Of a stretch of 64,000 nucleotides of DNA, positions 3,637 through 61,699 are shown piece after piece (the first letter of the stretch is position 1; each line of letters starts with the position of its first letter). The translations under genes and the position numbers were made by a program. The notes beneath the pieces are model-generated. The model saw nothing but the letters and a program-made list of their open reading frames with translations. It searched no databases and was not told where the DNA came from. Source of the DNA: an uncultured Candidatus Saccharibacteria bacterium. Its GTDB lineage: Bacteria > Patescibacteriota > Saccharimonadia > Saccharimonadales > CAIOMD01. Location: positions 830 through 64,829 of the forward strand of contig OY970318.1 in the NCBI GenBank assembly GCA_963716565.1, given 5' to 3'.

Positions 3637-3810
3637 GCAAGCCAAAGACAAAACAATGGCTTATATATCTAGCTTAAGAAACGAGATATTTGGTAATTTA
3701 TAAAGAAACTCTAAAAACATCCAAAAAACTCCTTTAAGCCTAAGCATTAGCAGAGTATAATTTAAGCTAGCTGCGGGTAAAAAAATAACAAAAAGTGTAA
3801 AGGGCTCTGT

Positions 3811-11391
<7,581 letters not shown>

Positions 11392-11488
11392 GTGGTGTCG
11401 TTGCCGAAGTAAGGCCATGGATACAGCCGTCGACTAAAAGATAGCCTCAGCCTCTAGTCTTTAATCTTAAGCATTGTTATAATTTACA

Positions 11489-14400
11489 TTGATGGGAAAA
11501 GAAAAAATAACCCCGTCGTTATTAGGGTGTTCCAATAAAAATATGCAAAAACCCAATAGGGGTTTGTGTTTGAGGCGCCCTAACCCTGTAAAACGAATTC
11601 ACTTAAAACTTCTAAAGAATGTAAGCTATAACGTCTGGTTCAATAAATTTAGGAATCACAAAAAGACTCATTATGCTTATGGGGCTTTTGTTGTAGTTAT
11701 TTTAGCCTCAATTTTGATTACTAACTTAATGCCGAACAAGGCTGTAGCTACGGCCACCATGACCTGGACGAATAACGGCGACTTTAGTATGAACAAAGTC
11801 GGTGCTTGTGAAGCTACTACTTTAAACGGTGTAACGGTTACTGGTACAGCTTATACAGACGAAACGTGTGCCACGACTGGAATAGATTCAAGTACGACTT
11901 TAGCGGCAGGGCCGGCGTTTCTCAATAATGTTATTTCTTTGGCGGGAGGCGGTAGTCACGGTGTTGCCGCTAGGGCGGACGGAACAGTTTGGAATTGGGG
12001 TGGTAACGGTCGTGGCCAACTAGGAAACAATACATACATCTCTAGTATGTTCCCTGTTCAAGTTATGAATCCTGCCGGTAACGGTTATCTGACAGACATA
12101 GTCGCTGTCACTGCTGGCGCCGGACACACCCTAGCCCTTAAGAGCGATGGTACGGTTTGGGGGTGGGGGTATAGTGCTCATTATGAGTTAGGAGGGTACA
12201 CTACAGACAGATTATTGCCTGTCCAGGTGAATGGCCTGTCGGATATCATTGCGATATCTGGGGGTACTTGGCACTCTTTAGCCCTTAAGAGCGATGGTAC
12301 GGTTTGGGCTTGGGGGTATGGTGCTTATGGCCAACTAGGTATTAACTGGACCGGGAATACCGGAACACCTGTGCAGGTGAAAGATACGCCCGGAACTGGT
12401 TACCTAACTGGGATTACTGCAATTAGCGCTGGCGATAACCATTCTATAGCACTAGCGGGTGATGGCGCTGTCTGGGCATGGGGAAGAAATGATGATGGCA
12501 GGATAGGCGATGGAACTTCGGGCGTCGATAGAAGATTGCCTGTGCAGGTAAAAGATAGTGTCGGGTCTGGTTATCTAACAAATATAATTTCAGTAGCAGC
12601 GGGCGGAGGTCATAGTCTTGCCGCTGGCTCAGACGGTTATGTTTGGGCTTGGGGCGGGAATGTTGCGGGCCAGGTTGGTGATGGCACAATGACTTCCCCC
12701 AGAACCCTACCAATCAAAGTAAAAGACACTTCTGGTACAGGTTATTTGTCTAGTGTTATTAAGGTTACAGCGGGGTCATCTCACTCTATGGCCTTGAAGA
12801 ACGATGGCGGTGTTTGGGCGTGGGGATACAACAATTATAGTCAAATAGGCGATGGTTCACCTACGGACCACTCCACTCCGGTTCGCGTAAAAGATGCAGC
12901 CGGTACCGGATATTTAACCAATATATCTGCCATTTCTGGAGCCTATAATAATCCATTTGCCTTAGATAATGATGGCACGGTTTGGGCGTGGGGAGGGAAT
13001 AATGTTGGACAGGGTGGTTTTAGTTCGGTGTCTAGGTCTGCATCTAACACTACAACTCTGGATAAACCGAATCACATTCTGGCAATGGTGGATGCGACAA
13101 AGCTAGCAGATGTTACAAAAATAACCTCTAATTTGGCCTTAAAAAATGACGGCACAATCTGGGGTTGGGGAAATAATAGCAGTGGCGAGCTGGGAGATGG
13201 TACGGCTGTTAATCAGTCTGTGGCTGTACCTGTGGACGGCGGATATTTTAGTAATGTGGCGAGCATTGCATCTACAGCGCATTCAGTGGCCTTAAAAAAT
13301 GACGGAACAGTTTGGTCTTGGGGTTATGGTTATTATGGATCGCTAGGTATAAATTCCAATGTCAATAAATATAGTCCAGTTCAGGTGAGAGATGCTAGTG
13401 GAGCTAATTATTTAACTGATGTGATTGCCATTGCCGCCAACGGTTATTTCTCTTTGGCTCTAAAAAACGACGGCAGTGTTTGGGCGTGGGGCCAAAATAG
13501 TAGTGGCCAGCTAGGAGATGGAACTACTAGTCAAAGAAACCTACCAGTGCAAGTAAAGGATCCAGCTGGTACGGGGTATTTAACAGGCATTGTAGCGATC
13601 AGTGCTGGTAGTTCGCACTCTTTTGCTGTAAAAAATGACGGCACAATCTGGGGCTGGGGATACAATGCTTCCGGATGTCTCGGAGATAATACTACAACCC
13701 AGCGAACTTTACCCGTGCAGGTAAAAGATGCAGCTGGCACAGGCTACCTGTCTAATGTTGTCAAGATTATAGCCGGTGGAGGTACTTCCATGGCTATCTT
13801 GAACGATGGTACTGCTTGGGCTTGGGGGGTTAACAGTAATGGCCAAATTGGAGACGGTACTACTTCACAAAGAAATTTACCCGTACAGATTAAGGATACT
13901 GCCGGTACCGGCTACTTAGTTAATGTAGTATCTGTGTCTTCCGGTAGTAATTTTTCGATAGCGTCAACATCAGATGGTAGAGTTTGGGCTTGGGGTTATG
14001 GCTATTACGGTCAACTGGGAGGAAGCAGTGGATCAAGTCTGCCGCAACCCGTTTTAGATCCATCCGGTTCTGGGTATTTGTCTGGTGTTGCGGCAGTGTC
14101 TGCAGGTTCCAATCGCTCAGTGGCGCTTAAATCTGATGGCACCGTAATGTCTTGGGGCTACAATCTTGGTGGTCAGGTGGGGAATGGAACGCAAATTCCT
14201 ACCTATGTACCGGATAATGTATATTCAAATATTGACCTCAACGCCGGCTACGTTGGCACTGGCACAGCCTCCAACTTCATTGCCGACATGGGCTCTAACC
14301 GTAAAACCAAGTGGTACGACCTAGATTGGAACACTAGTGCTTTGCCAGCTAATACTAGCTTGAAGTTCAATGTTCGTAGCAGTGATGATAAAGTGAGTTG

Positions 14401-17056
14401 GTCAGACTGGAGCAGTGACTTCACTCAAAACACACCTGGTTCCACAACTGGCAATGCCGACATCTCGGCCCTTCCATTCAGTCGCTACCTGGAAGTCAAA
14501 GCTACCCTTACCTCTACCGACTTAGTTAATACCCCAACTTTGCAAGATTTCACCATCACCCACATGAACGATCAGAATGCCCCAACTTGGGACTACCCAG
14601 TTGCCATTCCGGTTTACACCGACGACACTAAAGCTACAGCCCTTACTTCCAGCTCTTGGCAAGCCAACAACAATCTAACTAGTATCTATGCTGATTGGTC
14701 TGGAGCCACCGAACCAGAAGAAGAATCAGGCATTGCCCACTACTACGTCTACCTTGGTACCGACAACACCGCTAATCCCATCACCGCTGGTGTAGATATG
14801 GATACCGCCACCGAAGGTTACATCGATTTACCAAACAATCCCACGGACGGCACTTACTACCTGCGCGTTACCGTATCTGACCTAGCTGGCAATAACCTCA
14901 ACATGCCATCCGGTAGTGATTTGTTCAAATATCTTTATGATGGCACTAAACCTAATAACCCATCTTATATTTCGGTCTCGCCAGTGGGCTGGAGCATAGC
15001 CAACAGTTTTGACTTTAGCTGGCCCGAAGCCCTAGACCCTGGCAGCGGTTCGTCTAATATCGATTACTATCAATATCGCAAAGCTGGTGGGGGCGACACT
15101 TGGCATGACACTGTCGACAGATCGATTATCGGGATCACTTCTTACCAAGATGGTCGTAACGAATTCTTCGTTCGAGCTATCGACAACGCTGGTAATATTG
15201 CCGACAACCAAACCAGCGTTTATTACTACTACAACGGTTCGGCTCCAAGCGCTCCTGCTGGTTTGGACGTGGTACCACCCAACGCTACAACTAACAGCTT
15301 TACCTTCACCTGGTCAGAACCAGCTGTCCACAATGCCGACATTCGTGGCTATTACTACTCCATTGGCCCCGAGCCGACTATTAACAATTCGGTCTTTACT
15401 ACTAACACTACTACCGGCGCTATTCCGGCTGCCACCCAGCAGGGCTTTAATACCTTTTACGTAGTAGCAGTTGACGCTGATGACCAAATTAACTGGGGCA
15501 GTTATGCCGAAATCCAATTTGAATGTAACACTACCGCCCCAGGTATACCAGGCGGAGTGGTAATTAGTGATAGTAGCAACCGAGCTGATGAAAACTGGGC
15601 ACTCACTACGGCATGGAGCGCCTCAGCCGGAACAGTCCACCATTATAATATCTACCGTTCTACTGATGGCATTAACTTCTCGGCCATCGGCCAAACGGGC
15701 AGTACAGGCTTTTTTGACTCCGGCCTATCCAATACATCCACTTATCATTACAAAATTACCGCCGTAGATAACGCTGGTGCCGAATCAGCCTTTTCGTCGA
15801 CCGTCTCTAAGCAACCAACTGGCAAGTTCACCGAACCGCCGTTAATTGTTACTGGTCCTGATGTCGACATTAAAGCCACTCGTGCCACCATAACTTGGAG
15901 TACCGACAGAGCTTCATCCAGCTTTGCGGCTTACTCTAAAGATAACTCTTACGCTGAATCTAAGGGCCAGGTGGACTCGGTTACTTCGCATAGCGTAGAA
16001 CTATCTGGCTTAGAAGCTGGTACTACCTACAACTTCAAGGTCCAATCTTTAGACGAAAACCGCGACTACCCAATCGAAGATGCTTATTCTGGTGAATTCA
16101 ATTTTACCACTCAATCGGCCCCTGGTATCGCCGAAGTTAATGTTTCGGATATTCGGTTAACTTCAGCCACCGTTACCTGGAAGACTACCACAGTAGCCAC
16201 CTCTACAATTGTTTATGGTAAGACTGCCAACTATGGTCAAACTATCACTGACCAATCCGGCTCGGCTGTTACCACTCACACAGTTAAGCTAGAGGGTCTA
16301 GACCATACCACTCCATATTTCTTTAAGATTTATGGTACGGACAGTGATGGCAACCAGCTAGTCTCCGACAACTACGCCTTCAGTACTCTAACCTATCCCC
16401 GAGCTTATGATGTGCGTTTTGAGCAGCAAAAGAACACGGCTACATCCACTCTAAAGGTTACCTGGACGACTAATGTGCCCACGAGCTCCATTGTTACTTA
16501 CAACCAAGAAGGTGAAAGCTCAAAAGAAGTATCCAAATCTACCCTAGAAACTACTCACTCTATGTTAGTGCCCAATCTTCAAGACAACGTGCTGTACTAC
16601 ATGAGCGTTGGTGGCCGTGATGCCTATGGTAACGCCGCCTTGTCAGACAGTCAACGAGTTAAAACCGACTACGACACCCGTCCGCCAGCCGTCACCGACA
16701 TCGTCACCGAAAGCACTTCGTCTGGTTATGGCTTAGATACCAAGGCCCAAATAGTGGTATCTTGGATGACCGACGAACCAGCCACATCCCAAGTGGAATA
16801 TGCCGAAGGCGTAACAGGTGACAGCTACAATATGCGCTCCCCAGAAGATAGTGGCTTAAGCACTTCTCATGTTGTTGTATTAACCGATCTCAAACCATCT
16901 AGCTCCTACCACTTTCGAGTTATCTCTAAAGATACCTCTGCCAACCAAACTATCTCCGAACCAGACTCGGTTCTAACCGACATAGCTCGGGCTTCTATCA
17001 TCGACATCATTATTAAGTCCCTCCAAGATACTCTTGGCTGGCTGTTTGGAGGATAG
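11489..17056 (+). CDS. Giant (1855 aa) membrane-anchored RCC1-repeat (beta-propeller) / fibronectin-III-like surface protein
   Basis: There is an N-terminal TM segment (YAYGAFVVVILASILITNL). Many RCC1-type repeats follow (G..H..AL..DGTVW.WG.N..GQLGDGT...R..PVQV), spanning about 11900-14200. The C-terminal part has repeated ~95-aa FN3/purple-acid-phosphatase-N-like modules (I.W.T....S.V.YG........T.H.V.L.GL...T.Y.F.V.S.D..GN). The start is ambiguous (TTG 11489, ATG 11492 or ATG 11543). Confidence 0.8.
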   Translation: MMGKEKITPSLLGCSNKNMQKPNRGLCLRRPNPVKRIHLKLLKNVSYNVWFNKFRNHKKTHYAYGAFVVVILASILITNLMPNKAVATATMTWTNNGDFSMNKVGACEATTLNGVTVTGTAYTDETCATTGIDSSTTLAAGPAFLNNVISLAGGGSHGVAARADGTVWNWGGNGRGQLGNNTYISSMFPVQVMNPAGNGYLTDIVAVTAGAGHTLALKSDGTVWGWGYSAHYELGGYTTDRLLPVQVNGLSDIIAISGGTWHSLALKSDGTVWAWGYGAYGQLGINWTGNTGTPVQVKDTPGTGYLTGITAISAGDNHSIALAGDGAVWAWGRNDDGRIGDGTSGVDRRLPVQVKDSVGSGYLTNIISVAAGGGHSLAAGSDGYVWAWGGNVAGQVGDGTMTSPRTLPIKVKDTSGTGYLSSVIKVTAGSSHSMALKNDGGVWAWGYNNYSQIGDGSPTDHSTPVRVKDAAGTGYLTNISAISGAYNNPFALDNDGTVWAWGGNNVGQGGFSSVSRSASNTTTLDKPNHILAMVDATKLADVTKITSNLALKNDGTIWGWGNNSSGELGDGTAVNQSVAVPVDGGYFSNVASIASTAHSVALKNDGTVWSWGYGYYGSLGINSNVNKYSPVQVRDASGANYLTDVIAIAANGYFSLALKNDGSVWAWGQNSSGQLGDGTTSQRNLPVQVKDPAGTGYLTGIVAISAGSSHSFAVKNDGTIWGWGYNASGCLGDNTTTQRTLPVQVKDAAGTGYLSNVVKIIAGGGTSMAILNDGTAWAWGVNSNGQIGDGTTSQRNLPVQIKDTAGTGYLVNVVSVSSGSNFSIASTSDGRVWAWGYGYYGQLGGSSGSSLPQPVLDPSGSGYLSGVAAVSAGSNRSVALKSDGTVMSWGYNLGGQVGNGTQIPTYVPDNVYSNIDLNAGYVGTGTASNFIADMGSNRKTKWYDLDWNTSALPANTSLKFNVRSSDDKVSWSDWSSDFTQNTPGSTTGNADISALPFSRYLEVKATLTSTDLVNTPTLQDFTITHMNDQNAPTWDYPVAIPVYTDDTKATALTSSSWQANNNLTSIYADWSGATEPEEESGIAHYYVYLGTDNTANPITAGVDMDTATEGYIDLPNNPTDGTYYLRVTVSDLAGNNLNMPSGSDLFKYLYDGTKPNNPSYISVSPVGWSIANSFDFSWPEALDPGSGSSNIDYYQYRKAGGGDTWHDTVDRSIIGITSYQDGRNEFFVRAIDNAGNIADNQTSVYYYYNGSAPSAPAGLDVVPPNATTNSFTFTWSEPAVHNADIRGYYYSIGPEPTINNSVFTTNTTTGAIPAATQQGFNTFYVVAVDADDQINWGSYAEIQFECNTTAPGIPGGVVISDSSNRADENWALTTAWSASAGTVHHYNIYRSTDGINFSAIGQTGSTGFFDSGLSNTSTYHYKITAVDNAGAESAFSSTVSKQPTGKFTEPPLIVTGPDVDIKATRATITWSTDRASSSFAAYSKDNSYAESKGQVDSVTSHSVELSGLEAGTTYNFKVQSLDENRDYPIEDAYSGEFNFTTQSAPGIAEVNVSDIRLTSATVTWKTTTVATSTIVYGKTANYGQTITDQSGSAVTTHTVKLEGLDHTTPYFFKIYGTDSDGNQLVSDNYAFSTLTYPRAYDVRFEQQKNTATSTLKVTWTTNVPTSSIVTYNQEGESSKEVSKSTLETTHSMLVPNLQDNVLYYMSVGGRDAYGNAALSDSQRVKTDYDTRPPAVTDIVTESTSSGYGLDTKAQIVVSWMTDEPATSQVEYAEGVTGDSYNMRSPEDSGLSTSHVVVLTDLKPSSSYHFRVISKDTSANQTISEPDSVLTDIARASIIDIIIKSLQDTLGWLFGG

Positions 17057-23383: not shown

Positions 23384-23770
23384 GGGACTGACTTTAGCTC
23401 GACGTTGAATATTAACAATTTATGCATGCAAGCCGGTTTGTGCACCGTTACCGTACTACAATAAGTAGATGGCAAAAACTTTCTACAGCGTGTAGCTAGC
23501 ATGTTTTCCATGCCAGCTTACGCACCAGCCCTAGTTTAATCTAAGGCGATTGCTTGGTTTGATGCCAGGTAGAACCAAAGCAGTCTCATATTTTCTGGCT
23601 GCCAATCTTGAGCACCGTTTGAGCTCATTTTTGTAAGCTTTTCGAACTGCGGCTAATAGTTTTTTGTCTGTTTTATAACTAGTAGCCTAAGACACCCCAA
23701 ACAGAATAAGCTTGTAGAGGCATGAGTTGTTGTTCGACGGACCCGGGTGCGATTCCCGGCAGTTCCACCA
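23384..23770 (+). ncRNA. ssrA: tmRNA (SsrA)
   Basis: The 5' end GGGACTGACTTTAGCTCGACG resembles the canonical GGGGCUGAUUCUGGAUUCGACG. At the 3' end the T-arm is CCGGG-tgcgatt-CCCGG, followed by CAGTTCC-A-CCA. The 7-bp acceptor stem pairs 23384-23390 with 23760-23766 and includes a G3:U70 pair. A candidate tag ORF GGC AAA AAC ... GCC CTA GTT TAA runs 23470-23538. Its reading frame is tentative. Confidence 0.85.
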
Positions 23771-28103: not shown

Positions 28104-28108
28104 TTTGC

Positions 28109-28155
28109 CTATCGTCTATCATCCATCGTCCAACGTCCATTTAATCTGGTACAAT
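28109..28155 (+). promoter_or_regulatory. Five phased heptamers plus an extended -10 (TGgTACAAT) upstream of metG
   Basis: The heptamers ctatcgt ctatcat ccatcgt ccaacgt ccattta are followed by atc and TGGTACAAT (28147-28155). The ATG lies 9 nt downstream. Confidence 0.6.
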
Positions 28156-35428: not shown

Positions 35429-37583
<2,155 letters not shown>

Positions 37584-37592
37584 GCGTCGTTT

Positions 37593-37883
37593 ATGGCTAC
37601 CCAAAACCAATCAGCTCAAACTACCCCGGTTGCGGCCAACCGTTTTCATCTAAGGGTGTATTCTCCTTTTAGGGTTTATTTTGATGGTGACGCAAACAGT
37701 GTTTCGGCTATAAATGATACTGGGCCATTTGACATATTAGCTAGACACCATAAATTCATAACGCTTCTTAATCCTTGCGATTTGGTAATCAAAACCGAAG
37801 ATCAACAGGATTTTGTTATTAGTATCACGCGCGGCATTATGCAGGTAAAAGACAGTGATGTAGTAGTGTTTTTGGACGTTTAG
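37593..37883 (+). CDS. atpC: F1 ATPase epsilon subunit-like (96 aa)
   Basis: Size and operon position fit. The N-terminal beta-sandwich-like pattern is L.V.SP.......A.SV.A....G.F.IL..H.. Confidence 0.6.
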   Translation: MATQNQSAQTTPVAANRFHLRVYSPFRVYFDGDANSVSAINDTGPFDILARHHKFITLLNPCDLVIKTEDQQDFVISITRGIMQVKDSDVVVFLDV

Positions 37884-37927: not shown

Positions 37928-38962
37928 ATGAAAACAGTTTATGTTGGTTTAAGTGGCGGAGTAGACAGTTCGGTGGCGGCCGCCTTGCTAAAAGAGCAGG
38001 GCTATCATGTGGTTGGTGCCTACATGAAAAACTGGAGCCAGAGCTTGCCTGGTTTTACTTGCCCATGGCGCGATGATTACCAAGATGCTAAGCGAGTTGC
38101 CGTGCAACTTGGCATTGATTTTGAGTTATTTGATTTCGAAAAAGACTATCGCCAAAAAGTGGTGGACTATATGATTGATGTCTTTAAGTCTGGCCAAACA
38201 CCAAATCCAGATATTATGTGCAACCAAGAGATAAAATTTAAATTGTTTTTAAATACAGCTTTAGAAAAAGGCGCCGATTTTATTGCCACCGGCCACTATG
38301 CTCGTACTAAAAACGGCCAGCTATTTAAGGCTAAAGACGACAATAAAGACCAAACTTATTTCTTATACCGAGTTACTAGCCAGGCTTTGGCTAAAACAAT
38401 TTTTCCGCTGGGCGACTTAACAAAGCCCCAAGTCCGGGAACTGGCTAAAAAATACAATTTAGTTACGGCTACCAAAAAAGAAAGTATGGGAATTTGTTTT
38501 GTTGGCAAAGTGCCAATTAAAGACTTCTTGCTAAATTATGTTAAATCAAAAACAGGGAACATTGTTGATCAATTTGGCCGTGTTATTGGCCAGCACGATG
38601 GAGCCATCTTTTATACCATCGGCCAACGGCATGGTTTAGATGTTGGCGGCGGTTTGCCATATTACGTTGTTGGCAAAGATATGAAAAAGAACGAAGTTTA
38701 TGTATCTACCCAACTTAACGATGAGAAGTTGTGGCTTAAGGAGCTGACGCTAACAGAATGGCACTGGATAAACCGGTCGCCCGTGCCCAATAAAGTCTAC
38801 GAAATCCGTACTCGGCATCGTGCTCCACTGGCTAAGGCTGTGTTTAAAGATGAATCCTTAAAAACACTAAGCCTAAAAGAGCCGGTTAGGGCAATTACTC
38901 CTGGCCAATCAGTGGTTATCTACGATGGCCAAGAAGTCCTTGGCGGTGGCATCATTATTTAG
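37928..38962 (+). CDS. mnmA: tRNA-specific 2-thiouridylase
   Basis: The PP-loop is VGLSGGVDSSVAA. Other motifs are KNW, NPDI.CN..IKF, ATGHYAR and DQTYFL. Confidence 0.9.
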   Translation: MKTVYVGLSGGVDSSVAAALLKEQGYHVVGAYMKNWSQSLPGFTCPWRDDYQDAKRVAVQLGIDFELFDFEKDYRQKVVDYMIDVFKSGQTPNPDIMCNQEIKFKLFLNTALEKGADFIATGHYARTKNGQLFKAKDDNKDQTYFLYRVTSQALAKTIFPLGDLTKPQVRELAKKYNLVTATKKESMGICFVGKVPIKDFLLNYVKSKTGNIVDQFGRVIGQHDGAIFYTIGQRHGLDVGGGLPYYVVGKDMKKNEVYVSTQLNDEKLWLKELTLTEWHWINRSPVPNKVYEIRTRHRAPLAKAVFKDESLKTLSLKEPVRAITPGQSVVIYDGQEVLGGGIII

Positions 38963-39071
38963 ACGTTGGATAATGGACGTTAGACAATAGAGGGCTACCT
39001 ACGCAGGTTATGTTATTTGGCATTTCTAACATCTAATGTCCATCGTCTATCGTCTAATAATGGTGTACAAT
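38956..39071. promoter_or_regulatory. Inverted pair of 5-heptamer arrays flanking a ~30-nt spacer; the right arm abuts TGGTGTACAAT
   Basis: The minus-strand array (38990 down to 38956) reads ctattgt ctaacgt ccattat ccaacgt ctaaata. The plus-strand array (39026-39060) reads ctaacat ctaatgt ccatcgt ctatcgt ctaataa. It is followed by TGGTGTACAAT (39061-39071). The two arms can pair over about 30 positions with a few mismatches. Confidence 0.6.
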
Positions 39072-39113
39072 CTTAGGTGTATATAAGCATTAACAATTAA
39101 CAGGAGACCGATA

Positions 39114-39416
39114 ATGGGCCTATTTAGTTTTTTTAAAAAGCAGTCCGACCAGCAAGTACAAAATCAAAACATGGCTGATAACCAGCTTAGCCCTGCAGCC
39201 GATGTGCCTGCAGCTACTCCACCAGTAAACGTTAACCAAGTGCCGCCGTCACCAGCTCCAATGTCACCAAGCAATCCAGAACCGGTTGTTCCACCCACAG
39301 AACCAGCCGCCCCAGCAGAAAATGCTAACGATGTAGCAGGTGATTCACTAGATGGTGCTCAAAGCGATAGCGGCAGCGATTCGGGCAGTTCTGACGCCGG
39401 TGACTCCAGCTGGTAG
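39114..39416 (+). CDS. Pro-rich, acidic low-complexity protein (100 aa) with an amphipathic N-terminus
   Basis: GGAG precedes the ATG. The sequence runs MGLFSFFKKQ..., then a PxP-rich middle, then a DSGSDSGSSDAGDSSW tail. Confidence 0.55.
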   Translation: MGLFSFFKKQSDQQVQNQNMADNQLSPAADVPAATPPVNVNQVPPSPAPMSPSNPEPVVPPTEPAAPAENANDVAGDSLDGAQSDSGSDSGSSDAGDSSW

Positions 39417-39432
39417 TTTTTAAGCTTAACCA

Positions 39433-39462
39433 TTGACTAAAAATTAAATAATTTTTTAAAGT
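39433..39462 (+). promoter_or_regulatory. Weak candidate promoter for the structured RNA
   Basis: TTGACT lies at 39433-39438, followed by an 18-nt spacer and TAAAGT at 39457-39462. Confidence 0.3.
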
Positions 39463-39468
39463 GTTTTT

Positions 39469-39924
39469 TGCTATTATTTAAAGAACCTCTTGTTGGGAGG
39501 TCTTGGGGGACTATAAGCAAGCGGTCCGGGCAAATCGGGGCATCACGTTTTGTTCAAGTAATGAACCGTACGGGCTTGATCTGTGATGAGTTAGCGGTGA
39601 CACTCAACAACACCAGCCGGGGTGCCCTTAGGGGCTACCACCAATACGCATGGGTTTACCCAGCCGTGGCGAAGAGCCAACGGCCCGAGTCACTCCTTGA
39701 TGTATGGGGGTGACATCCATCTGTGTTACCTGTGGCTCAGGTATAGGCGGAAGCGCCTTATCAGGGCCATCAAGGTCAAGACCACTGTGGGGGTATCCAA
39801 AACCTATGCGCCTTCCAGGCAGGCACGAAACCAAGTTCCCCGGTTTGCCTTTCGTGCCTGAAAACTCTGCGGATAGTCCAGTGGTATCCATTCCATCTGG
39901 GCTATCCGCTATAACCATAGTCTT
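39469..39924 (+). ncRNA. GC-rich structured non-coding region directly upstream of the RT; candidate retron msr-msd RNA (boundaries uncertain)
   Basis: GC rises to 58% (counted over 39601-39660) against 17% in 39421-39480. The ORF track shows overlapping ORFs in several frames on both strands with no SD or start context, a typical non-coding signature. An 11-bp perfect hairpin pairs 39820-39830 with 39850-39860. A 13 to 16-bp hairpin spans 39869-39909. A 13-bp long-range complement pairs GGGCAAATCGGGG (39528-39540) with CCCCGGTTTGCCT (39838-39850). Confidence 0.55.
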
Positions 39925-40995
39925 ATGAGCCAGATACAATTATTTGATCCAGAAGCATTAATGCAACCAGCGGTTGACCCCAGGGTCGAAAAATTATTGA
40001 GTGGCTTTGAGGACGCTAGCTTTAGGACATTCCCAAAACAAGAGCGCGATAAAGTTCGTTGGCTGCACGATCCCAACGAAAGCATGCGAGAGGCACATGA
40101 ACTTATTAAAGAGCTCGCTGCGAATGCTAGTGCCATATCGCCACATGCCACTGGGCTACAAGGTGGTAGTCGTGCCAATGCTGAACGGCATTTGGGCAAT
40201 AAGTTTTTTTATTTGATTGATTTAAAAGATGCCTACGGACAAATACAATTACCAGCGCTTGCAGAATTTTTAGGCAACCATGGCTTTCCAGCCGAGACTG
40301 CTGACATCGAAACTATTTTAAATCGTTTTTGTCGCAAACCCGACGGGCAGGGTCTTTGCCAAGGGGGCCCAGCCTCGCCGTTACTATTTAACATTGCCCT
40401 TTATGATGTCGACCAACAAATAGCGGGAATATGCGAAAAGCATGAACTAACTTATACGCGATATGCGGATGATTTGGCTATTTCTGGCCGTGAATCAATT
40501 GGCGATAAGAAGCGTAAGCAAATACGTGGAGTTCTTGAAGAGGCTGGGTTAGAAATTAGCCATAAAAAGACTCACCGCCATAGTTTGGCGAATGCTCCTG
40601 TAGTTGTGACTGGCATTCAGATAAATCGCAGCGGTTCAATTATTTTACCTACGCCCAAACAGCTAAGAGTAGCTAATATTATAAATGAGCTGTGCTTTCA
40701 AGTATTCGAGGATGGCGAACCATTAACCGAATTGCAGGTCCAAAAGGTGGCTGGCTACAAAGGCATGGTTATGTCTGCTATCGATGGGCGTCGAAAAGAT
40801 CTAACGGCTTTCGAAAAAGATGCTCTTGTAAAAGCCGAAGCATTAAGACTTTCGTATAAGCAGAGTAGGGAGACGGTCAATTTGGGCTTCACGGCTCTTA
40901 GATTATTCAATGGTCGACCGATGCAAATCGAAATTGTCGATGGTAGATTCCGCAGAGTAGTCGGCCCATCATTTGAACTGCCAAAACGGGATTAA
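39925..40995 (+). CDS. Retron-type reverse transcriptase (356 aa)
   Basis: Motifs in order are SRANAERH (NAxxH), YLIDLKDAY, LCQGGPASPLLFN (QGxxxSP), YTRYADDLAIS (YADD codons 40462-40473), SHKKT and PVVVTGIQIN (VTG). The protein aligns by eye along its whole length with retron Ec86 RT. Confidence 0.85.
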   Translation: MSQIQLFDPEALMQPAVDPRVEKLLSGFEDASFRTFPKQERDKVRWLHDPNESMREAHELIKELAANASAISPHATGLQGGSRANAERHLGNKFFYLIDLKDAYGQIQLPALAEFLGNHGFPAETADIETILNRFCRKPDGQGLCQGGPASPLLFNIALYDVDQQIAGICEKHELTYTRYADDLAISGRESIGDKKRKQIRGVLEEAGLEISHKKTHRHSLANAPVVVTGIQINRSGSIILPTPKQLRVANIINELCFQVFEDGEPLTELQVQKVAGYKGMVMSAIDGRRKDLTAFEKDALVKAEALRLSYKQSRETVNLGFTALRLFNGRPMQIEIVDGRFRRVVGPSFELPKRD

Positions 40996-41022
40996 TGTAA
41001 GAAATCTGTTAAAATATATCTG

Positions 41023-43029
41023 ATGAACGCATCTGAAATTCGTAAAGCCTTTTTGGATTATATGGCAAAAAATGGCCACACTGTAATTCCGCGTGCCAAT
41101 TTGGTGCCACAAAATGACCCAACTACTTTATTCACCGGTTCGGGCATGCAACCGCTGGTGCCGTATTTGTTAGGCGAAAATCACCCAAGTGGCAACAGGG
41201 TAGCTAATAGTCAAACCTGTTTGCGTGCTGAAGATATAGAAGAAATTGGCGACATGTGCCATACCACCTTTTTTGAAATGCTTGGCAACTGGAGTTTTGG
41301 AAATTATTGGAAGGAAGAACAGCTAGCTTGGCTATTTGAATTTCTAACAGATAAGGTTGGACTTGAGCCATCAAAACTTTACGTAACTTGTTTTTCTGGT
41401 GACAAAGAAGTAGGAATACCGCCAGATGAAGATTCGGCCAGAAAATGGAAAGAACTATTTAGCCTCAAGAATATAGAGGGCAAAATAGTCGAAATCGGTT
41501 CTAAAAAAGACGGTGGCATCAAAGGTATGCAAGACGGTCGGATTTTTTATTACGACGCCGGCAAAAACTGGTGGAGTCGAGCTGGGACCCCTAAAGAAAT
41601 GCCTGCTGGCGAACCTGGCGGCCCAGACAGCGAAGTTTTTTATCGTTTTTCTGACGATGAGCACAGTGAAGAAGAAAAGAAACAGTTTGGCGAACAATGC
41701 CACCCCAATTGCGAATGCGGTCGTTTTTTAGAAATCGGCAACTCAGTGTTTATGCAATATATTAAAAGAGAAGATGGTTCTTTTGGTCCCTTGCCAAAGA
41801 ATAATATTGACTTTGGTGGCGGTTTAGAGCGCATTGCTGCAGCTAAAGCTAACAATCCGGATGTCTTTAAGATTGATTTGCTCTGGCCGATTATTCAAAA
41901 ACTCGAAGAATTATCGAGCATGAAATATGATTTTACTCCTGGCGATTTGGGTTACGAAACGGTTCCCGAATGCTGGATAAAAGTTATGGAATCTATGCGG
42001 GTGATTGCCGATCACTTGCGAGCGGCCGTTTGGCTGGCAGTGGATGGGGTCGTGCCCAGCAACAAAGTTCAGGGCTATGTAATGCGTCGCTTAATGCGCC
42101 GTGCTATTCGCTACGCCTTAGAACTTAAGATAGAACAAGATTTATGCGAGCGCATTGTTCCTACGATTATTGATATTTACCAAGCCGATTACCCAGAGGC
42201 GAAAGAAGCTAAAGACAAGATTATAGATGTATTGACCAAAGAAGAAAAAATCTTCCGGCAAACCCTAAAAAAAGGGCTAAAGGAGTTCGAGGGTTATTTT
42301 GCAAAGATAGCAGTCGAATATGACACAAAAGTTGCCACTCCAGAAGAGGTAGCGGAAAAAACGGGGCAATTTGTCCCTCTGTTGAAGTTAACGGGAGAAA
42401 TATTATTTAAGCTATATGATACTTATGGTTTTCCGATTGAACTCTCCAAAGAGGAAGCCATTAACAGAGACATCAAGGTTGATGACAATGCTGAAGAGGA
42501 ATTCAATAAGCTCATGCAAGAGCAGCGGCAGCGTTCGCAGACGGCAGCGCAAGGGGCTTTTAGGGGCGGCTTAGCCGATAGCAGTGAAATGACTACCAAA
42601 TATCACACTGCGGCGCACCTGCTAATGCAAGCCCTAAGAAGCGTATTAGGTGATCATGTTAGCCAAAAGGGCAGCAACATCACCGCCGAGCGTTTGCGTT
42701 TAGACTTTAGCCATCCCGAAAAGGTAACGCCCGAACAACTGGCCGAAGTCGAGAAAATTGTTAACGAAAAAATCCAAGCCGACTTACCTGTTACCTGCTC
42801 CGAACAAGATGTAAAACAAGCTATGGCCGAAGGCGCTCAAGGCGTTTTTGGCGATAAATATGGCGACAAGGTAAAAGTTTACTCAATCGGCGACTTTAGC
42901 AAAGAAATCTGTGGCGGCCCACACATTGACCACACTGGCCAGCTAGCCGAAGGTGATAAAAAATTTCGCATTACAAAAGAAGAGTCTTCTAGTGCAGGGG
43001 TTAGGCGAATTAAGGCCGTTCTAGCCTGA
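41023..43029 (+). CDS. alaS: Alanyl-tRNA synthetase, short form (668 aa, no C-Ala domain)
   Basis: Motifs are MNASEIRKAFLDYMAKNGHT, FTGSGMQP, FFEMLGNWSFG.YWK, editing-site HTAAHLL and CGGPH. An extended -10 TGTTAAAAT lies at 41006-41014. Confidence 0.9.
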   Translation: MNASEIRKAFLDYMAKNGHTVIPRANLVPQNDPTTLFTGSGMQPLVPYLLGENHPSGNRVANSQTCLRAEDIEEIGDMCHTTFFEMLGNWSFGNYWKEEQLAWLFEFLTDKVGLEPSKLYVTCFSGDKEVGIPPDEDSARKWKELFSLKNIEGKIVEIGSKKDGGIKGMQDGRIFYYDAGKNWWSRAGTPKEMPAGEPGGPDSEVFYRFSDDEHSEEEKKQFGEQCHPNCECGRFLEIGNSVFMQYIKREDGSFGPLPKNNIDFGGGLERIAAAKANNPDVFKIDLLWPIIQKLEELSSMKYDFTPGDLGYETVPECWIKVMESMRVIADHLRAAVWLAVDGVVPSNKVQGYVMRRLMRRAIRYALELKIEQDLCERIVPTIIDIYQADYPEAKEAKDKIIDVLTKEEKIFRQTLKKGLKEFEGYFAKIAVEYDTKVATPEEVAEKTGQFVPLLKLTGEILFKLYDTYGFPIELSKEEAINRDIKVDDNAEEEFNKLMQEQRQRSQTAAQGAFRGGLADSSEMTTKYHTAAHLLMQALRSVLGDHVSQKGSNITAERLRLDFSHPEKVTPEQLAEVEKIVNEKIQADLPVTCSEQDVKQAMAEGAQGVFGDKYGDKVKVYSIGDFSKEICGGPHIDHTGQLAEGDKKFRITKEESSSAGVRRIKAVLA

Positions 43030-44004
43030 AAGCCCTTGGACTGTTTCTTCTAAAATGGTTTTAAGGTGTCTTGTAAGCGCGTAGTAGGACGTTGGATTGT
43101 TTTCTGGAGTATATGTTTCTTTTCTCTCTTTTCCGCTAGAGTCCAACTGAACTTGGGTGCCGTCTCTGTCTCTAGCAATATATCGTTCGGCAACAGTTTG
43201 CTCAACAGTATAACCAAAGGCATCACTGGCATCTCCCAAGCAGAGGTAGGAGAATTTTTTAGCCATCGTTGTGTTGTCGTGGTTCTGTAGCAACAGTACA
43301 GAATATAACTTGTACCGTTGTTTTCTAGGATTTTCACCTTTTTCTGTTTCCTCGCGGGGTTCTTCCTCGGTATTAATAGCTAATCCTAGTCTATCTCCGT
43401 TTGGTAATGTCTGAATGCAGGTTTGGCTCTCAACCGATTTACCTTCGTAACAGCCTATACATTTTGTAATCCCCTCTATTAAGCGATCATCTAAGACATC
43501 GTCTTGGTATACAGATGGATAGTCAATTGGTAATAGCTCACCGCCACTTCTCGCGGCCAGCAAATTGCCCAGTAAATGCGTGGCAAGGAGAGGGTTGCGA
43601 ATTATCGTTTGTTTTTGAGTTGGCGCAGATATAAGCATCGCATTTTTGTTGGTTGTGATATTTATGGGCATACCATCTGCTTTAAAAGTTATTTCTGACT
43701 TCCAATTCAAACCTTGCAGGGCACTTAACTTTGGGCCCAAACGGCGGAATCTTACGTTTAACTCTGTGGTCAAAAAGCTCTCTGGCAGTCCTAACGATTC
43801 CCCAATATCTTCTGGTAATGTTTTTCTGTGCAGCCTAAAAGCATCCTCGGCCTCCACGCTACAGTTGTGCGAAGAAAAAGCTTGCATAAATTCAAAGAAG
43901 CTTCTAGACTCAAGAAATTCTTCTAGGGCTCTGGGTTCGGTAAAAATATCTTGGCCCATTTCACCAAATTGCCAGGGGCTATCGTATTCAGAACCACTTC
44001 TCAT
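43021..44004 (-). CDS. Hypothetical protein (327 aa), convergent with alaS and overlapping it by 9 nt
   Basis: This is a long ORF. No motif was recognised. Confidence 0.55.
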   Translation of the reverse strand: MRSGSEYDSPWQFGEMGQDIFTEPRALEEFLESRSFFEFMQAFSSHNCSVEAEDAFRLHRKTLPEDIGESLGLPESFLTTELNVRFRRLGPKLSALQGLNWKSEITFKADGMPINITTNKNAMLISAPTQKQTIIRNPLLATHLLGNLLAARSGGELLPIDYPSVYQDDVLDDRLIEGITKCIGCYEGKSVESQTCIQTLPNGDRLGLAINTEEEPREETEKGENPRKQRYKLYSVLLLQNHDNTTMAKKFSYLCLGDASDAFGYTVEQTVAERYIARDRDGTQVQLDSSGKERKETYTPENNPTSYYALTRHLKTILEETVQGLSG

Positions 44005-44083: not shown

Positions 44084-45370
44084 ATGCTCGATAAACTAAA
44101 ACACCTTAAAAAACACAAGCCAGAGGGCGAGAAACCAAACAATCAGCGCTTGATGGTTGGTTTAGATATTGGTACCGAATTTGTCAAAGCTCTCGTTGCC
44201 AAAGTTGACGATAATAATCAGATAGAAATCTTAGGTGTTGGGCGGGCTCATCAATCCTTAACCGATATGCAAGCTGGCGCTATTGCCGATATTGCTGCCG
44301 TTGTAGCCAATTGCGACAACGCTCTAACCCAAGCTGAGCAACAGGCCGGGCTAAGCGCCCGTAGTGCCGTTGTGGGCATTGCTGGCGAGCTGGTAAAAGG
44401 CAACACTATCACCGTTAAATTTACACGCAAGAACCCTAACAAAGAGATTACCGTAGACGAAATTGACCGAATCTTTTCACTGGTTCAAGAAAGAGCTTTG
44501 GCTCTAGCTAAAAAACAACTTGCCCTAGAAACTGGCGGCAAAGAAATCGGCTTAAAGCTGGTTAACAGTGCCCTTATTGCTATAGAAATCGATGGCTACG
44601 GCGTTACTAATCCAATTGGTTTTCAGGGCAAAGATGTTCAAGTAGAACTCTACACGGCCTTTGCGCCATTAGTGCATATTGGTGCTATCGAGCGAGTCGC
44701 CGAACAGCTAGATCTAGATTTATTAACCGTAGCCGCCGAGCCATTTGCAGTGGCACGTTCAGTTATTGGTGACGACCCCAACGCCAACTTAAGCGCTATT
44801 TTAATGGATGTTGGCGGCGGCACCACCGATATTGCCGTAGTAAACGAAGGTGGCGTAGAAGGCACCATAATGTATGGTATTGGCGGTCGCAGTTTTACTA
44901 AATCGGTTGCTAAAGATTTAGATGTTGACTTCGAACGGGCCGAAAGCCTTAAGTTAGGCTTGAGCGATGGTCGCACACCAGAGCCAAGGCGTAAATCGGT
45001 AGAAGATGCTCTTAAAAAGACTTTATCGGTTTGGTTAAGCGGTGTTGAACTGGCCTTAAGTGAATTTAAACGGTTAGATAATCTGCCCCACCAAATATTT
45101 CTTTGCGGTGGTGGTGCTAGCCTAGAGCTATTAACCGATATTTTAGCCACTGGTTCGTGGTTCGAAGGCCTGCCATTCACCAAAAAGCCACAAGTCCAAC
45201 TAATAAAACCGGGCCAAGTAGTTGGCGTAAAAGACAAAACCGGCCTATTAGACGACCATACATTCATTACGGCCATGGGATTATTGCGAGTTGGTATCGA
45301 TACCCTGTTACAATATGATATGCCGGCCGGCTCCATTAAAGAGCGCCTAAATAAGATATTAAAGATATGA
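44084..45370 (+). CDS. ftsA: Actin-like cell-division ATPase FtsA
   Basis: Motifs are VGLDIGTEFVKALV, AVVGIAGE, MDVGGGTTDIAV, GGRSFTKSVAKDL......AESLK and LCGGGA. Confidence 0.8.
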   Translation: MLDKLKHLKKHKPEGEKPNNQRLMVGLDIGTEFVKALVAKVDDNNQIEILGVGRAHQSLTDMQAGAIADIAAVVANCDNALTQAEQQAGLSARSAVVGIAGELVKGNTITVKFTRKNPNKEITVDEIDRIFSLVQERALALAKKQLALETGGKEIGLKLVNSALIAIEIDGYGVTNPIGFQGKDVQVELYTAFAPLVHIGAIERVAEQLDLDLLTVAAEPFAVARSVIGDDPNANLSAILMDVGGGTTDIAVVNEGGVEGTIMYGIGGRSFTKSVAKDLDVDFERAESLKLGLSDGRTPEPRRKSVEDALKKTLSVWLSGVELALSEFKRLDNLPHQIFLCGGGASLELLTDILATGSWFEGLPFTKKPQVQLIKPGQVVGVKDKTGLLDDHTFITAMGLLRVGIDTLLQYDMPAGSIKERLNKILKI

Positions 45371-61656: not shown

Positions 61657-61699
61657 TCTAGCGTCTATCATCCATCATCTAGCGTCTAATTTGGTATAA
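61657..61699 (+). promoter_or_regulatory. Five phased heptamers plus an extended -10 (TGgTATAAT), third copy of the motif
   Basis: The heptamers ctagcgt ctatcat ccatcat ctagcgt ctaattt are followed by GGTATAAT (61692-61699). The array starts 5 nt after the uvrC stop. The ATG at 61714 lies 14 nt after the -10. Confidence 0.6.

What the first reader, a model, noticed from the sequence alone, without database searches (positions are those of the whole stretch)
38963..41022. The RT locus looks like a ~2-kb cassette inserted between mnmA and alaS
The cassette begins immediately after the mnmA stop. Its order is: inverted heptamer arrays, a Pro-rich ORF with a membrane-amphipathic-looking N-terminus (MGLFSFFKK) and an acidic disordered tail, the structured RNA, then the RT. 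alaS follows 27 nt after the RT stop and has its own extended -10 (TGTTAAAAT) inside that gap. The flanking housekeeping genes are therefore transcriptionally insulated. No terminator separates the Pro-rich ORF from the RNA, so all three parts may be one transcript. This makes the small ORF the most plausible partner or effector candidate.
Basis: inference. Interest (0 to 1): 0.55.

Follow-up and report, generated by a model that had tools for sequence, protein, structure and literature searches.

The report
Effector-less retron cassette inserted before alaS
A 1.56-kb unit, made of a folded RNA plus a retron-type reverse transcriptase, sits between a resident small proline-rich gene and alaS in a Saccharibacteria genome. 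The small gene and the heptamer repeats are not part of it, and it has no recognisable effector gene.

Summary

- **Where the insert starts.** The closest relative found (L129, mnmA 83% identical) has mnmA, the same heptamer arrays, the same Pro-rich ORF, then a 44-nt gap and alaS. It has no RNA and no RT. A more distant genome (L041) shows the same layout.
- **Size of the insert.** The real insertion is only the structured RNA plus the RT, about 39442-41001.
- **Its own promoter.** The insert carries an extended -10 box (TGCTATTAT).
- **Heptamer arrays.** They are a promoter-upstream motif that recurs elsewhere in the window.
- **RT lineage.** The RT belongs to the retron lineage. It has the NAxxH, VTG and YADD motifs. 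Its best HMM, PDB-sequence and Foldseek matches are all retron RTs.
- **RNA layout.** A conserved 13-bp end-closing helix encloses three small hairpins and a hypervariable ~160-nt hairpin, as in a retron msr-msd.
- **No effector.** No effector is adjacent here, and no neighbour is conserved across 46 related metagenomic loci.
- **Rarity.** Close relatives are very rare: two 50%-identity clusters among 1.84 billion representative proteins.

[quoted passage not shown] Its biological role is unknown.

The parts
39442..41001 (+). The real inserted segment, about 1.56 kb: ncRNA promoter, ncRNA and RT. Boundaries are approximate, to within about 5 nt.
   Evidence: The empty site in L129 reads TAGAGTTATTGGCTAAACAATCAAAACAATCTGTTAAAATGTAATTGATG. 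Window homology ends after ATTGACTAAA (39432-39441) and resumes at AAATCTGTTAAAAT (41002-41015). L041 also has the Pro-rich ORF directly before alaS.
39469..39477 (+). Extended -10 promoter of the ncRNA (TGCTATTAT). The inferred transcription start is about 39483-39485.
   Evidence: It is read directly from the sequence. L001 has TGTTATTAT at the same position, and L002 has TTGACT-17-TATTCT before its RNA.
39528..39540 (+). 5' arm of the end-closing helix P1 (a1-like), GGGCAAAUCGGGG.
   Evidence: It pairs with 39838-39850 (13 bp, span 323 nt) in the MFE and consensus folds. Both arms are conserved in L001, where almost everything else has diverged.
39541..39647 (+). msr-like region with three small hairpins: CAUCAC/GUGAUG, GGUG/CACC and GCCGGG..GCCC/GGGC.
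   Evidence: The consensus fold with L001 keeps these helices and shows compensatory or one-sided changes. Sequence similarity to L001 is above chance (z 3.4). The trimmed alignment A7 has 79% mean column identity.
39648..39809 (+). msd-like long irregular hairpin (162 nt), hypervariable in sequence.
   Evidence: MFE helices 39648-39661 / 39791-39809 enclose an extended stem. L001 has a 182-nt counterpart with no sequence similarity (identity 0.48 against 0.49 for shuffled sequence, z -0.6). No coding signal is conserved.
39838..39850 (+). 3' arm of P1 (a2-like), CCCCGGUUUGCCU.
   Evidence: The arm can alternatively sit in the loop of a local hairpin, GGCACGAAA/UUUCGUGCC (39822-39858, read).
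39869..39909 (+). Conserved 3' hairpin between P1 and the RT start codon. Its role is unknown; it may control RT translation.
   Evidence: The helix has 17 pairs, and 7 of them are changed on both sides between the window and L001.
39925..40995 (+). Retron-lineage reverse transcriptase, 356 aa. Motifs: NAERH (aa 85-89, nt 40177-40191), YADD (aa 180-183, nt 40462-40473), VTG (aa 228-230, nt 40606-40614).
   Evidence: PADLOC retron RT models score up to 7.4e-37. NCBIfam retron_St85_RT scores 6.7e-38, against 1.6e-13 for group II and 2.2e-12 for Drt2. The top 12 PDB sequence hits and the top 18 Foldseek hits are retron RTs. pN 0.24 against pS 0.85 versus L001.
39114..39416 (+). Resident Pro-rich small gene (100 aa). 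It is NOT part of the cassette.
   Evidence: It is present without the RT in L129 (49% id) and L041 (34% id). Analogous small ORFs occupy the same slot in L011 and L032. dN/dS is 0.12-0.21.
38959..39057 (.). Inverted heptamer arrays (left 38959-38991, right 39025-39057). The right array abuts the Pro-rich gene's -10 box TACAAT (39066-39071). They are NOT part of the cassette.
   Evidence: Identical arrays sit before the -10 boxes at 28108-28139 and 61657-61688. They are also present in RT-less L129.
41007..41015 (+). alaS extended -10 box, TGTTAAAAT. The ATG lies 7 nt after it, so the mRNA is probably leaderless.
   Evidence: It is conserved in L001 and L129, and L041 has TGTTATAAT.

Best explanation
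The element is a stand-alone retron-type cassette made of one structured non-coding RNA and its reverse transcriptase. The window/L001 lineage gained it between a pre-existing small Pro-rich gene and the alaS promoter.

**Shown**
- The insertion boundaries.
- The RT's retron lineage and intact catalytic motifs.
- A strongly folded upstream RNA whose closing helix and 3' hairpin are conserved or covary with L001.
- The absence of any conserved neighbouring gene across the wider family.

**Inferred**
- The RNA is transcribed from its own extended -10 box.
- Its ends pair (a1/a2).
- The RT binds the three conserved 5' hairpins (msr-like).
- Priming comes from the 2'-OH of a G next to the closing helix, and the RT copies the hypervariable long hairpin (msd-like) into a branched single-stranded DNA of roughly 150-190 nt.

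No effector is encoded in cis, so what that RNA-DNA-RT complex does is open. It could act in phage sensing with a partner encoded elsewhere, or it could have another role.
For: **Insertion**
- L129 and L041 show Pro-rich ORF then alaS with nothing in between.
- None of 80 Saccharimonadales mnmA loci has the RT.
- The mnmA-alaS gap ranges from 11 nt to 5.1 kb and its contents are unrelated between genomes.

**RT**
- NAxxH and VTG are the retron hallmarks according to PMC7736814. H89 is invariant in A1 and at least 90% conserved in A5. G230 is invariant in both.
- PADLOC, NCBIfam, PDB-sequence and Foldseek top hits are all retron RTs. The AlphaFold model has mean pLDDT 79.

**RNA**
- Fold z-scores are -4.9 (window), -8.1 (L001) and -3.8 (L002).
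- Of 87 consensus pairs, 23 changed on both sides.
- The layout matches the published msr-msd description: terminal repeats that hybridise, one to three msr hairpins, and a long msd stem-loop (quoting PMC7736814).
- The msr-like part is conserved and the msd-like part is hypervariable.
- The region upstream of the RT is structured in 22 of 33 family loci, against 8 of 41 coding controls.

**Stand-alone state**
- No neighbour is shared across the family, and the flanks are housekeeping genes.
- Stand-alone (msr-msd)-RT cassettes are documented in the literature.
Against: - No msDNA has been observed and no branching G can be assigned. The window has no unpaired G within 6 nt after a1, whereas L001 has one at +2.
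- HMM scores are far below curated family cut-offs (130 bits against 235), and no PADLOC retron type is favoured.
- Covariation rests on only two close sequences.
- A model built from the msr-like part finds nothing in other loci.
- A family-wide test on perfect inverted repeats did not beat shuffles or coding controls.
- The RNA core (323 nt, plus leader and 3' hairpin) is larger than most described retron ncRNAs (stated from my own knowledge).
- Without an effector, the element is an incomplete retron in the tripartite-defence sense.
Confidence: 0.72

Rival explanations
1. One reading: the heptamer arrays, Pro-rich ORF, RNA and RT form one roughly 2-kb cassette and one transcript, with the Pro-rich membrane-amphipathic protein acting as the RT's partner or effector.
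For: - Both genomes that carry this RT clade with known upstream context (window and L001) have the Pro-rich ORF immediately upstream.
- Only a weak terminator-like hairpin separates the ORF from the RNA.
Against: - L129 and L041 have the Pro-rich ORF, and L129 also the arrays, directly before alaS without RNA or RT.
- L002 and 46 other RT loci lack any such ORF.
- The RNA has its own promoter, present in all three loci with close-clade DNA.
- The arrays are a general promoter-upstream motif in this genome.
- The ORF has no PADLOC or Pfam match.
Confidence: 0.06
2. The RT belongs to the retron lineage, but the system works like the effector-less RT-ncRNA defence systems DRT2 and DRT9. In that case the cDNA product itself (a concatemer, a homopolymer or a coding DNA) is the active agent, not an antitoxin-like msDNA.
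For: - The architecture is the same: one RT plus one large upstream ncRNA and no effector, and this holds family-wide.
- Open frames of about 100 aa on the cDNA-sense strand cover the RNA in the window, L001 and L002.
Against: - The RT scores are much better for retrons than for Drt2 (46.9 bits against a cut-off of 390) or Drt3a.
- Foldseek ranks the DRT9 and DRT2 structures below 18 retron structures.
- The antisense ORFs share no similarity and are not significant against shuffles (p 0.06-0.19).
- The template-like hairpin is hypervariable, which argues against a conserved encoded product.
Confidence: 0.12
3. The cassette is a functionally orphaned remnant, or it relies on an effector encoded elsewhere. 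One candidate is the genome-specific ORFan at 43021-44004; another would lie outside the window.
For: - Nothing effector-like lies in cis.
- orf327 is lineage-specific and sits in the next variable gap.
Against: - The RT is intact, with all motifs, and under purifying selection (pN 0.24 against pS 0.85) across a pair that is 40% diverged.
- The RNA structure is maintained while its sequence has turned over. Together these argue against decay.
- orf327 has no homologue at all, so co-occurrence cannot be tested. It is separated from the RT by alaS and lies on the other strand.
Confidence: 0.08
4. The RT belongs to another retroelement class: a diversity-generating retroelement (common in this phylum) or a group II intron fragment.
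For: - DGRs are frequent in Patescibacteria (general knowledge; paper titles listed).
- The distant relative P0005 has an ...ASQ motif in place of ...ASP.
Against: - No template/variable repeat pair involving the RNA region exists in the 64-kb window.
- The RT has QGGPASP rather than the [LIV]GxxxSQ form that I recall as typical of DGR RTs (for the window motif; the DGR form is from my own knowledge).
- The DGR RT structure ranks 23rd in Foldseek.
- The group II model scores 50 bits against a cut-off of 300, and there is no Rfam intron hit.
Confidence: 0.02

Closest known systems
Stand-alone (msr-msd)-RT retron cassettes (branches of RT clades 2 and 11 in Mestre et al. 2020, PMC7736814)
   Same: - A retron-lineage RT with NAxxH and VTG.
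- An adjacent upstream ncRNA with hybridising terminal repeats, small msr-type hairpins and one long stem-loop.
- No associated effector gene.
   Different: - The RT is not assignable to any PADLOC or Mestre type; the best model scores about 125 bits, with several types tied.
- The host is a Saccharibacteria (CPR) genome. My searches of the held literature found no paper describing retrons in that group.
- The RNA core is larger (323 nt) and carries an extra conserved 3' hairpin.
Characterised tripartite retrons (Ec86/Eco1, Ec78/Eco7, St85/Sen2, Ec83, Eco8)
   Same: - These are the best sequence and structure matches: PDB phmmer 1e-14 to 1e-10, Foldseek TM-score (normalised to target length) about 0.7 over the full target length.
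- The motif set is the same and the RNA-then-RT gene order is the same.
   Different: - No effector of any known kind (NDT, PtuAB, ATPase-Toprim and so on) is present in cis.
- Identity to the solved RTs is only 15-23% in the Foldseek alignments.
- msDNA production has not been demonstrated.
DRT2 / DRT9 (UG-class defence RTs with an ncRNA and no effector)
   Same: The minimal two-part architecture: a structured ncRNA immediately upstream of a single RT.
   Different: - The RT lineage differs (Drt2 model 46.9 bits against a cut-off of 390).
- There is no conserved template sequence and no significant repeat-spanning ORF.
Diversity-generating retroelements of Patescibacteria
   Same: A small RT with nearby non-coding template RNA in CPR genomes.
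   Different: - No TR/VR pair was found.
- The window RT carries retron-type motifs.
- No target gene is apparent.

Membership tests
Retron (RT lineage) | [quoted passage not shown] | tested here: met
   NAERH lies at aa 85-89. H89 is invariant in A1 and at least 90% conserved in A5. It aligns with RDNAAAH of Ec78. The definition comes from PMC7736814.
Retron (RT lineage) | [quoted passage not shown] | tested here: met
   VTG lies at aa 228-230. G230 is invariant in both A1 and A5. It aligns with VTGI of Ec78.
Retron (RT lineage) | Best profile and structure matches are retron RTs rather than group II, DGR or UG/Abi RTs | tested here: met
   NCBIfam scores are retron_St85 6.7e-38, group II 1.6e-13 and Drt2 2.2e-12. 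The PADLOC top 25 are all retron RT models. The PDB top 12 and Foldseek top 18 are retron RTs.
Retron (ncRNA) | Adjacent msr-msd RNA with terminal inverted repeats that pair, 1-3 msr hairpins and a long msd stem-loop | tested here: met
   The predicted fold has a 13-bp P1 (39528-39540 / 39838-39850), three hairpins and a 162-nt hairpin. P1 is conserved, and other helices covary with L001. This rests on prediction and two sequences only.
Retron (ncRNA) | Branching G next to a1, and production of branched msDNA | not testable with these tools
   No experimental data are available. The G-rich 3' end of a1 (CGGGG) and the G at +2 in L001 are candidates only.
Retron as tripartite defence system | A specifically associated effector gene or fused effector domain | tested here: not met
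   The flanks are the resident Pro-rich gene and alaS. The Pro-rich ORF occurs without the RT. No neighbour is conserved in 46 related loci. The RT's C-terminal tail (aa 314-356) is predicted with low confidence and no fold was assigned.
One of the 13 described retron types (PADLOC models) | A strong, type-specific match to one RT model | tested here: not met
   The best score is 124.9 bits (III-A), with II-A, X and VI within 20 bits. All 40 family members behave the same way, with a best E-value of 5e-42. The NCBIfam score of 130 bits is below the cut-off of 235.
DRT2 (UG2) | A Drt2-type RT | tested here: not met
   NF041746 scores 46.9 bits against a cut-off of 390. The DRT2 structure ranks 30th in Foldseek.
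Diversity-generating retroelement | A TR/VR near-repeat pair and an RT with [LIV]GxxxSQ | tested here: not met
   No repeat of the RNA region occurs anywhere in the window. The motif is QGGPASP. Only 64 kb of the genome could be searched. The [LIV]GxxxSQ form is from my own knowledge, not from a tool result.
Group II intron | Intron RNA domains and a maturase-type RT | tested here: not met
   There is no Rfam hit at E up to 1. TIGR04416 scores 50.5 bits against a cut-off of 300.
Mobile insertion element | Terminal repeats, a target-site duplication, or an integrase or transposase | tested here: not met
   No duplication is visible at the junctions compared with the L129 empty site, and the 1.56 kb holds no recombinase. 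The sequence divergence of L129 limits resolution.

The most novel reading that the evidence does not exclude
The window RT and its roughly 30-60%-identical metagenomic relatives may form a distinct, previously unclassified branch of retron-lineage RTs whose native state is effector-less. Many come from groundwater samples, including 0.1-micron filter fractions. Each is a single RT with a large self-promoted structured RNA, scattered among housekeeping genes, some with a primase-type CHC2 zinc ribbon fused or adjacent. In this reading the reverse-transcribed product itself carries the function, or the module serves a non-defence role in very small genomes, rather than acting as the antitoxin of a toxin-antitoxin-like defence system.
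Probability: 0.15. Interest if true: 0.7.

Novelty: new variant of a known kind. Interest (0 to 1): 0.4.

Why it matters
- **Annotation.** It corrects the locus annotation. The unit to study or clone is the 1.56-kb RNA+RT module, not the 2-kb interval, and the Pro-rich gene should not be pursued as its effector.
- **Biology.** Retrons are currently understood as three-part defence systems. A branch that is effector-less family-wide, kept under purifying selection in a ~0.8-Mb Saccharibacteria genome, raises the question of what RT plus msDNA does by itself.
- **Tools.** A compact cassette with its own promoter and a long, freely variable template hairpin might suit retron-based DNA-writing tools, if it proves active.

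Tried and rejected
- **Rfam.** Searches of the locus and of 20 related loci found only tRNA and tmRNA.
- **Covariance model.** A model built from the msr-like part of the window and L001 found no further members in 42 sources.
- **Viral contigs.** An exact-pattern scan for the a1 arm gave 0 hits. An RT scan gave only relatives at 41% identity or less, most at 23-32%.
- **Missing DNA.** P0003 and P0004, the other close RTs, could not be fetched. P0001's record could not be looked up, so the source assembly is unnamed.
- **Inverted-repeat test.** A family-wide test on perfect inverted repeats did not separate upstream regions from shuffles or coding controls. Family-wide a1/a2 pairing is therefore suggested by the MFE folds but not proven.
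- **Antisense ORFs.** Those over the RNA are not conserved and not individually significant. The combined p of 0.006 is confounded by real neighbouring genes.
- **DGR repeats.** None were found in the window.
- **orf327 as an effector.** It has no family hit and no homologue, so the idea is untestable.
Full report
**What is in the interval.** The window around the finding reads as follows.

| Coordinates | Strand | Feature |
|---|---|---|
| 36279-37883 | + | atpD, atpC |
| 37928-38962 | + | mnmA |
| 38963-41022 | | 2060-bp interval under review |
| 41023-43029 | + | alaS |
| 43021-44004 | - | 327-aa ORF |
| 44084-45370 | + | FtsA-like gene |

- Two inverted arrays of 7-nt units lie at 38959-38991 and 39025-39057, with 33-nt arms that are 76% complementary.
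- A 100-aa Pro-rich ORF lies at 39114-39416, with a Shine-Dalgarno sequence.
- A GC-rich stretch has 56-58% GC, against 40-46% in the flanks. It folds far better than shuffles, with z = -4.9 and no shuffle as good.
- An RVT_1 protein lies at 39925-40995.
- A 27-nt gap before alaS contains TGTTAAAAT.

**The cassette is smaller than proposed.**
- *Synteny survey.* A scan of GTDB species-representative genomes with mnmA returned 80 Saccharimonadales loci.
  - None encodes the RT.
  - In 71 of them mnmA is followed by alaS. The gap runs from 11 nt to 5.1 kb, and 21 loci have under 150 nt.
  - The larger gaps hold unrelated genes in different genomes. This junction is therefore a variable hotspot.
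- *Decisive locus.* It came from the only detectable homologue of the Pro-rich protein (P0024).
  - Its contig, L129, is the closest relative seen: mnmA 82.6% and alaS 67.5% identical.
  - L129 reads mnmA, inverted heptamer arrays, Pro-rich ORF (MGLFSFFKKQSDAQVQNQNQN...), 44 nt, alaS. It has no structured RNA and no RT.
- *Outgroup.* A more distant genome, L041 (mnmA 64%), has a 65-aa MGLFGFLKKKK...Pro-rich ORF in the same slot, followed directly by alaS. L011 and L032 have analogous small ORFs there.
- *Boundaries.* Junction comparison places the RT-specific segment at about 39442-41001. It follows ATTGACTAAA, which matches ATTGGCTAAA in L129. It precedes AAATCTGTTAAAAT, the alaS promoter shared by the window, L001 and L129.
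- *Direction.* With L129 and L041 as outgroups, a gain in the window/L001 lineage is the parsimonious reading.

**The Pro-rich gene and the arrays are resident features.**
- The Pro-rich ORF is a real gene. dN/dS is 0.21 against L001 and 0.12 against L129.
- It occurs without the RT in L129 and L041. The RT occurs without it in L002 and in 46 metagenomic loci.
- The heptamer motif is not specific to this locus.
  - TCYATCGTCYA with one mismatch allowed occurs 15 times in the window, against 2.0 expected, and 0 of 100 shuffles reach that count.
  - The matches cluster in arrays immediately upstream of -10 boxes: at 28108-28139 (TGGTACAAT, before a metG-like ORF), at 61657-61688 (TGGTATAAT), and at 39025-39057 before the Pro-rich gene's TACAAT.
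  - The arrays therefore look like a lineage-specific promoter-upstream element. They are also present in L129 but in none of 188 other loci.

**The RNA has its own promoter.**
- An extended -10 box, TGCTATTAT, lies at 39469-39477. L001 has TGTTATTAT at the equivalent position, and L002 has TTGACT-17-TATTCT before its RNA.
- A weak terminator-like hairpin closes the Pro-rich ORF at 39396-39414.
- A single three-part transcript is not excluded, but it is no longer the simplest reading.

**The RT is retron-lineage.**
- *Profile matches.*
  - The 25 best PADLOC hits are all retron RT models, led by III-A at 7.4e-37.
  - NCBIfam gives retron_St85_RT at 6.7e-38, covering model positions 30-275 of 289. 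Group II scores 1.6e-13 and Drt2 2.2e-12.
- *Solved structures.*
  - The 12 best PDB sequence matches are retron RTs: Ec78, Ec86, Kva2, Ec67 and Ec83.
  - An AlphaFold model (mean pLDDT 79.4, pTM 0.74) matches 18 retron RT structures first. The TM-score normalised to target length is about 0.7. Group II, DRT9, DGR, G2L4 and DRT2 structures follow.
- *Motifs.* The two retron-defining motifs named by Mestre et al. (PMC7736814) are present.
  - NAERH lies at aa 85-89 and VTG at aa 228-230.
  - H89 is invariant in A1 and at least 90% conserved in A5. G230 is invariant in both.
  - YADD lies at aa 180-183.
- *Selection.* Against L001, pN is 0.24 and pS is 0.85 (saturated), which indicates purifying selection.
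- *No type assignment.* Scores stay well below curated cut-offs, and no retron type stands out for any of 40 family members.
- *Rarity.*
  - An exhaustive search of 1.84 billion representative proteins found only two close clusters, itself and P0004.
  - Beyond those there are 33 hits at 1e-30 or better, on a continuum of 1380 at 1e-10 or better.

**The RNA has the retron msr-msd layout.** Folding of the window and L001 gives the same plan.

| Element | Window | L001 | Evidence |
|---|---|---|---|
| End-closing helix P1 | GGGCAAAUCGGGG 39528-39540 with CCCCGGUUUGCCU 39838-39850 (13 bp) | 481-493 with 812-824 (13 bp) | The arms are almost the only sequence the two RNAs share |
| Three small 5' hairpins | 39541-39647 | present | Similarity z 3.4; 79% column identity in the trimmed alignment |
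| Long irregular hairpin | 162 nt | 182 nt | No sequence similarity at all (z -0.6); no conserved coding potential |
| 3' hairpin before the RT start | 39869-39909 | present | 7 of 17 pairs changed on both sides |

- This layout matches the published description: terminal repeats that hybridise, one to three msr hairpins, and a long msd stem-loop.
- It also shows the familiar pattern of a conserved msr and a variable msd.
- In the wider family, the 350 nt upstream of the RT is significantly structured in 22 of 33 loci. The median z is -3.3, against -0.77 for coding controls (8 of 41 significant).
- MFE folds show 10-18-bp closing helices spanning 170-340 nt in most loci.
- A stricter perfect-repeat test was not discriminating. 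A model of the msr-like part found no other members.

**No effector.**
- Neighbour clustering across the 46 metagenomic loci found no shared gene.
- The adjacent genes are housekeeping: DnaB, SmpB with tmRNA, GroES, LemA and an endonuclease-Q-like protein.
- P0006 sits alone, with about 600 nt of non-coding DNA upstream.
- The only recurring association is a DnaG-type CHC2 zinc ribbon. It is fused to the RT in P0008 and P0010, and encoded downstream in L091, L092 and L095. The window has none.
- Mestre et al. already note stand-alone (msr-msd)-RT cassettes in two RT clades. The architecture is therefore known, but this clade and this host are not. Literature searches found no paper describing a retron in Saccharibacteria or Patescibacteria.

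**Verdict.**
- The element is a stand-alone retron-type RNA+RT cassette of a divergent clade. It was inserted between a resident small gene and the alaS promoter at a variable junction.
- msDNA synthesis by 2'-OH priming is inferred, not shown, and the downstream function is open.
- I rate it a new variant of a known kind, of moderate interest.

Noticed in passing
window 28108-28139, 39025-39057 (and inverted 38959-38991), 61657-61688: Arrays of 4-5 heptamers (TCYATCR) sit immediately upstream of -10 boxes (two of them extended) of at least three genes. The motif occurs 15 times against 2 expected. It is shared with L129 but absent from 188 other loci. It may be a lineage-specific promoter-upstream or regulator-binding element.
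   Followed up: partly
window 43021-44004 (-): A 327-aa ORFan lies convergent with alaS and overlaps its end by 9 nt. It has no Pfam, NCBIfam or PADLOC hit, and its only match among 5.8 billion proteins is itself. It is absent from all 80 related loci. The alaS-to-ftsA-like gap is a second variable slot.
   Followed up: partly
L130 4001-5278; L091 2445-2798; L095 1126-1410: A DnaG-type CHC2 zinc ribbon recurs with this RT family. It is fused to the RT in P0008 and P0010, and encoded as a small ORF just downstream in three loci. It is a possible accessory module for a sub-branch.
   Followed up: partly
window 39628-39939 (-); L001 580-888 (-); L002 229-483 (-): Antisense (cDNA-sense) ORFs of 103, 102 and 84 aa cover the RNA region in all three loci. 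They share no similarity and are not individually significant against shuffles (p 0.06-0.19).
   Followed up: yes
window 39114-39416 vs L001 85-399: Synonymous divergence of the Pro-rich gene (pS 0.41) is much lower than that of the flanking alaS (0.72) or the RT (0.85). This suggests extra nucleotide-level constraint or a recent exchange of this segment.
   Followed up: no
window 41007-41025: The alaS -10 box ends 7 nt before the ATG and there is no Shine-Dalgarno sequence, so alaS is probably translated from a leaderless mRNA. The same arrangement is seen in L001 and L129.
   Followed up: no
window 39507-39514 and 39917-39924: The 5' leader GGGACUAU can pair with AUAGUCUU immediately before the RT start codon, which has no Shine-Dalgarno sequence. 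L001 has a roughly equivalent AUAAAAAC / GUUUUAU pairing. This could occlude RT translation initiation.
   Followed up: no
window 139-17056: Three very large ORFs (1165, 2526 and 1855 aa) lie in a row at the start of the window. A tmRNA gene lies at 23384-23770.
   Followed up: no
L003-L082 (mnmA-alaS gap): The mnmA-alaS junction holds unrelated inserts in different Saccharimonadales genomes. One is a 120-aa ORF beginning MLAIRLQRLGRKGYP, which looks like ribosomal protein S16; it recurs in six loci (L058, L059, L063, L064, L066, L074). Others include an HD-domain-like protein and various hypothetical genes. In two loci alaS is missing from this position.
   Followed up: partly
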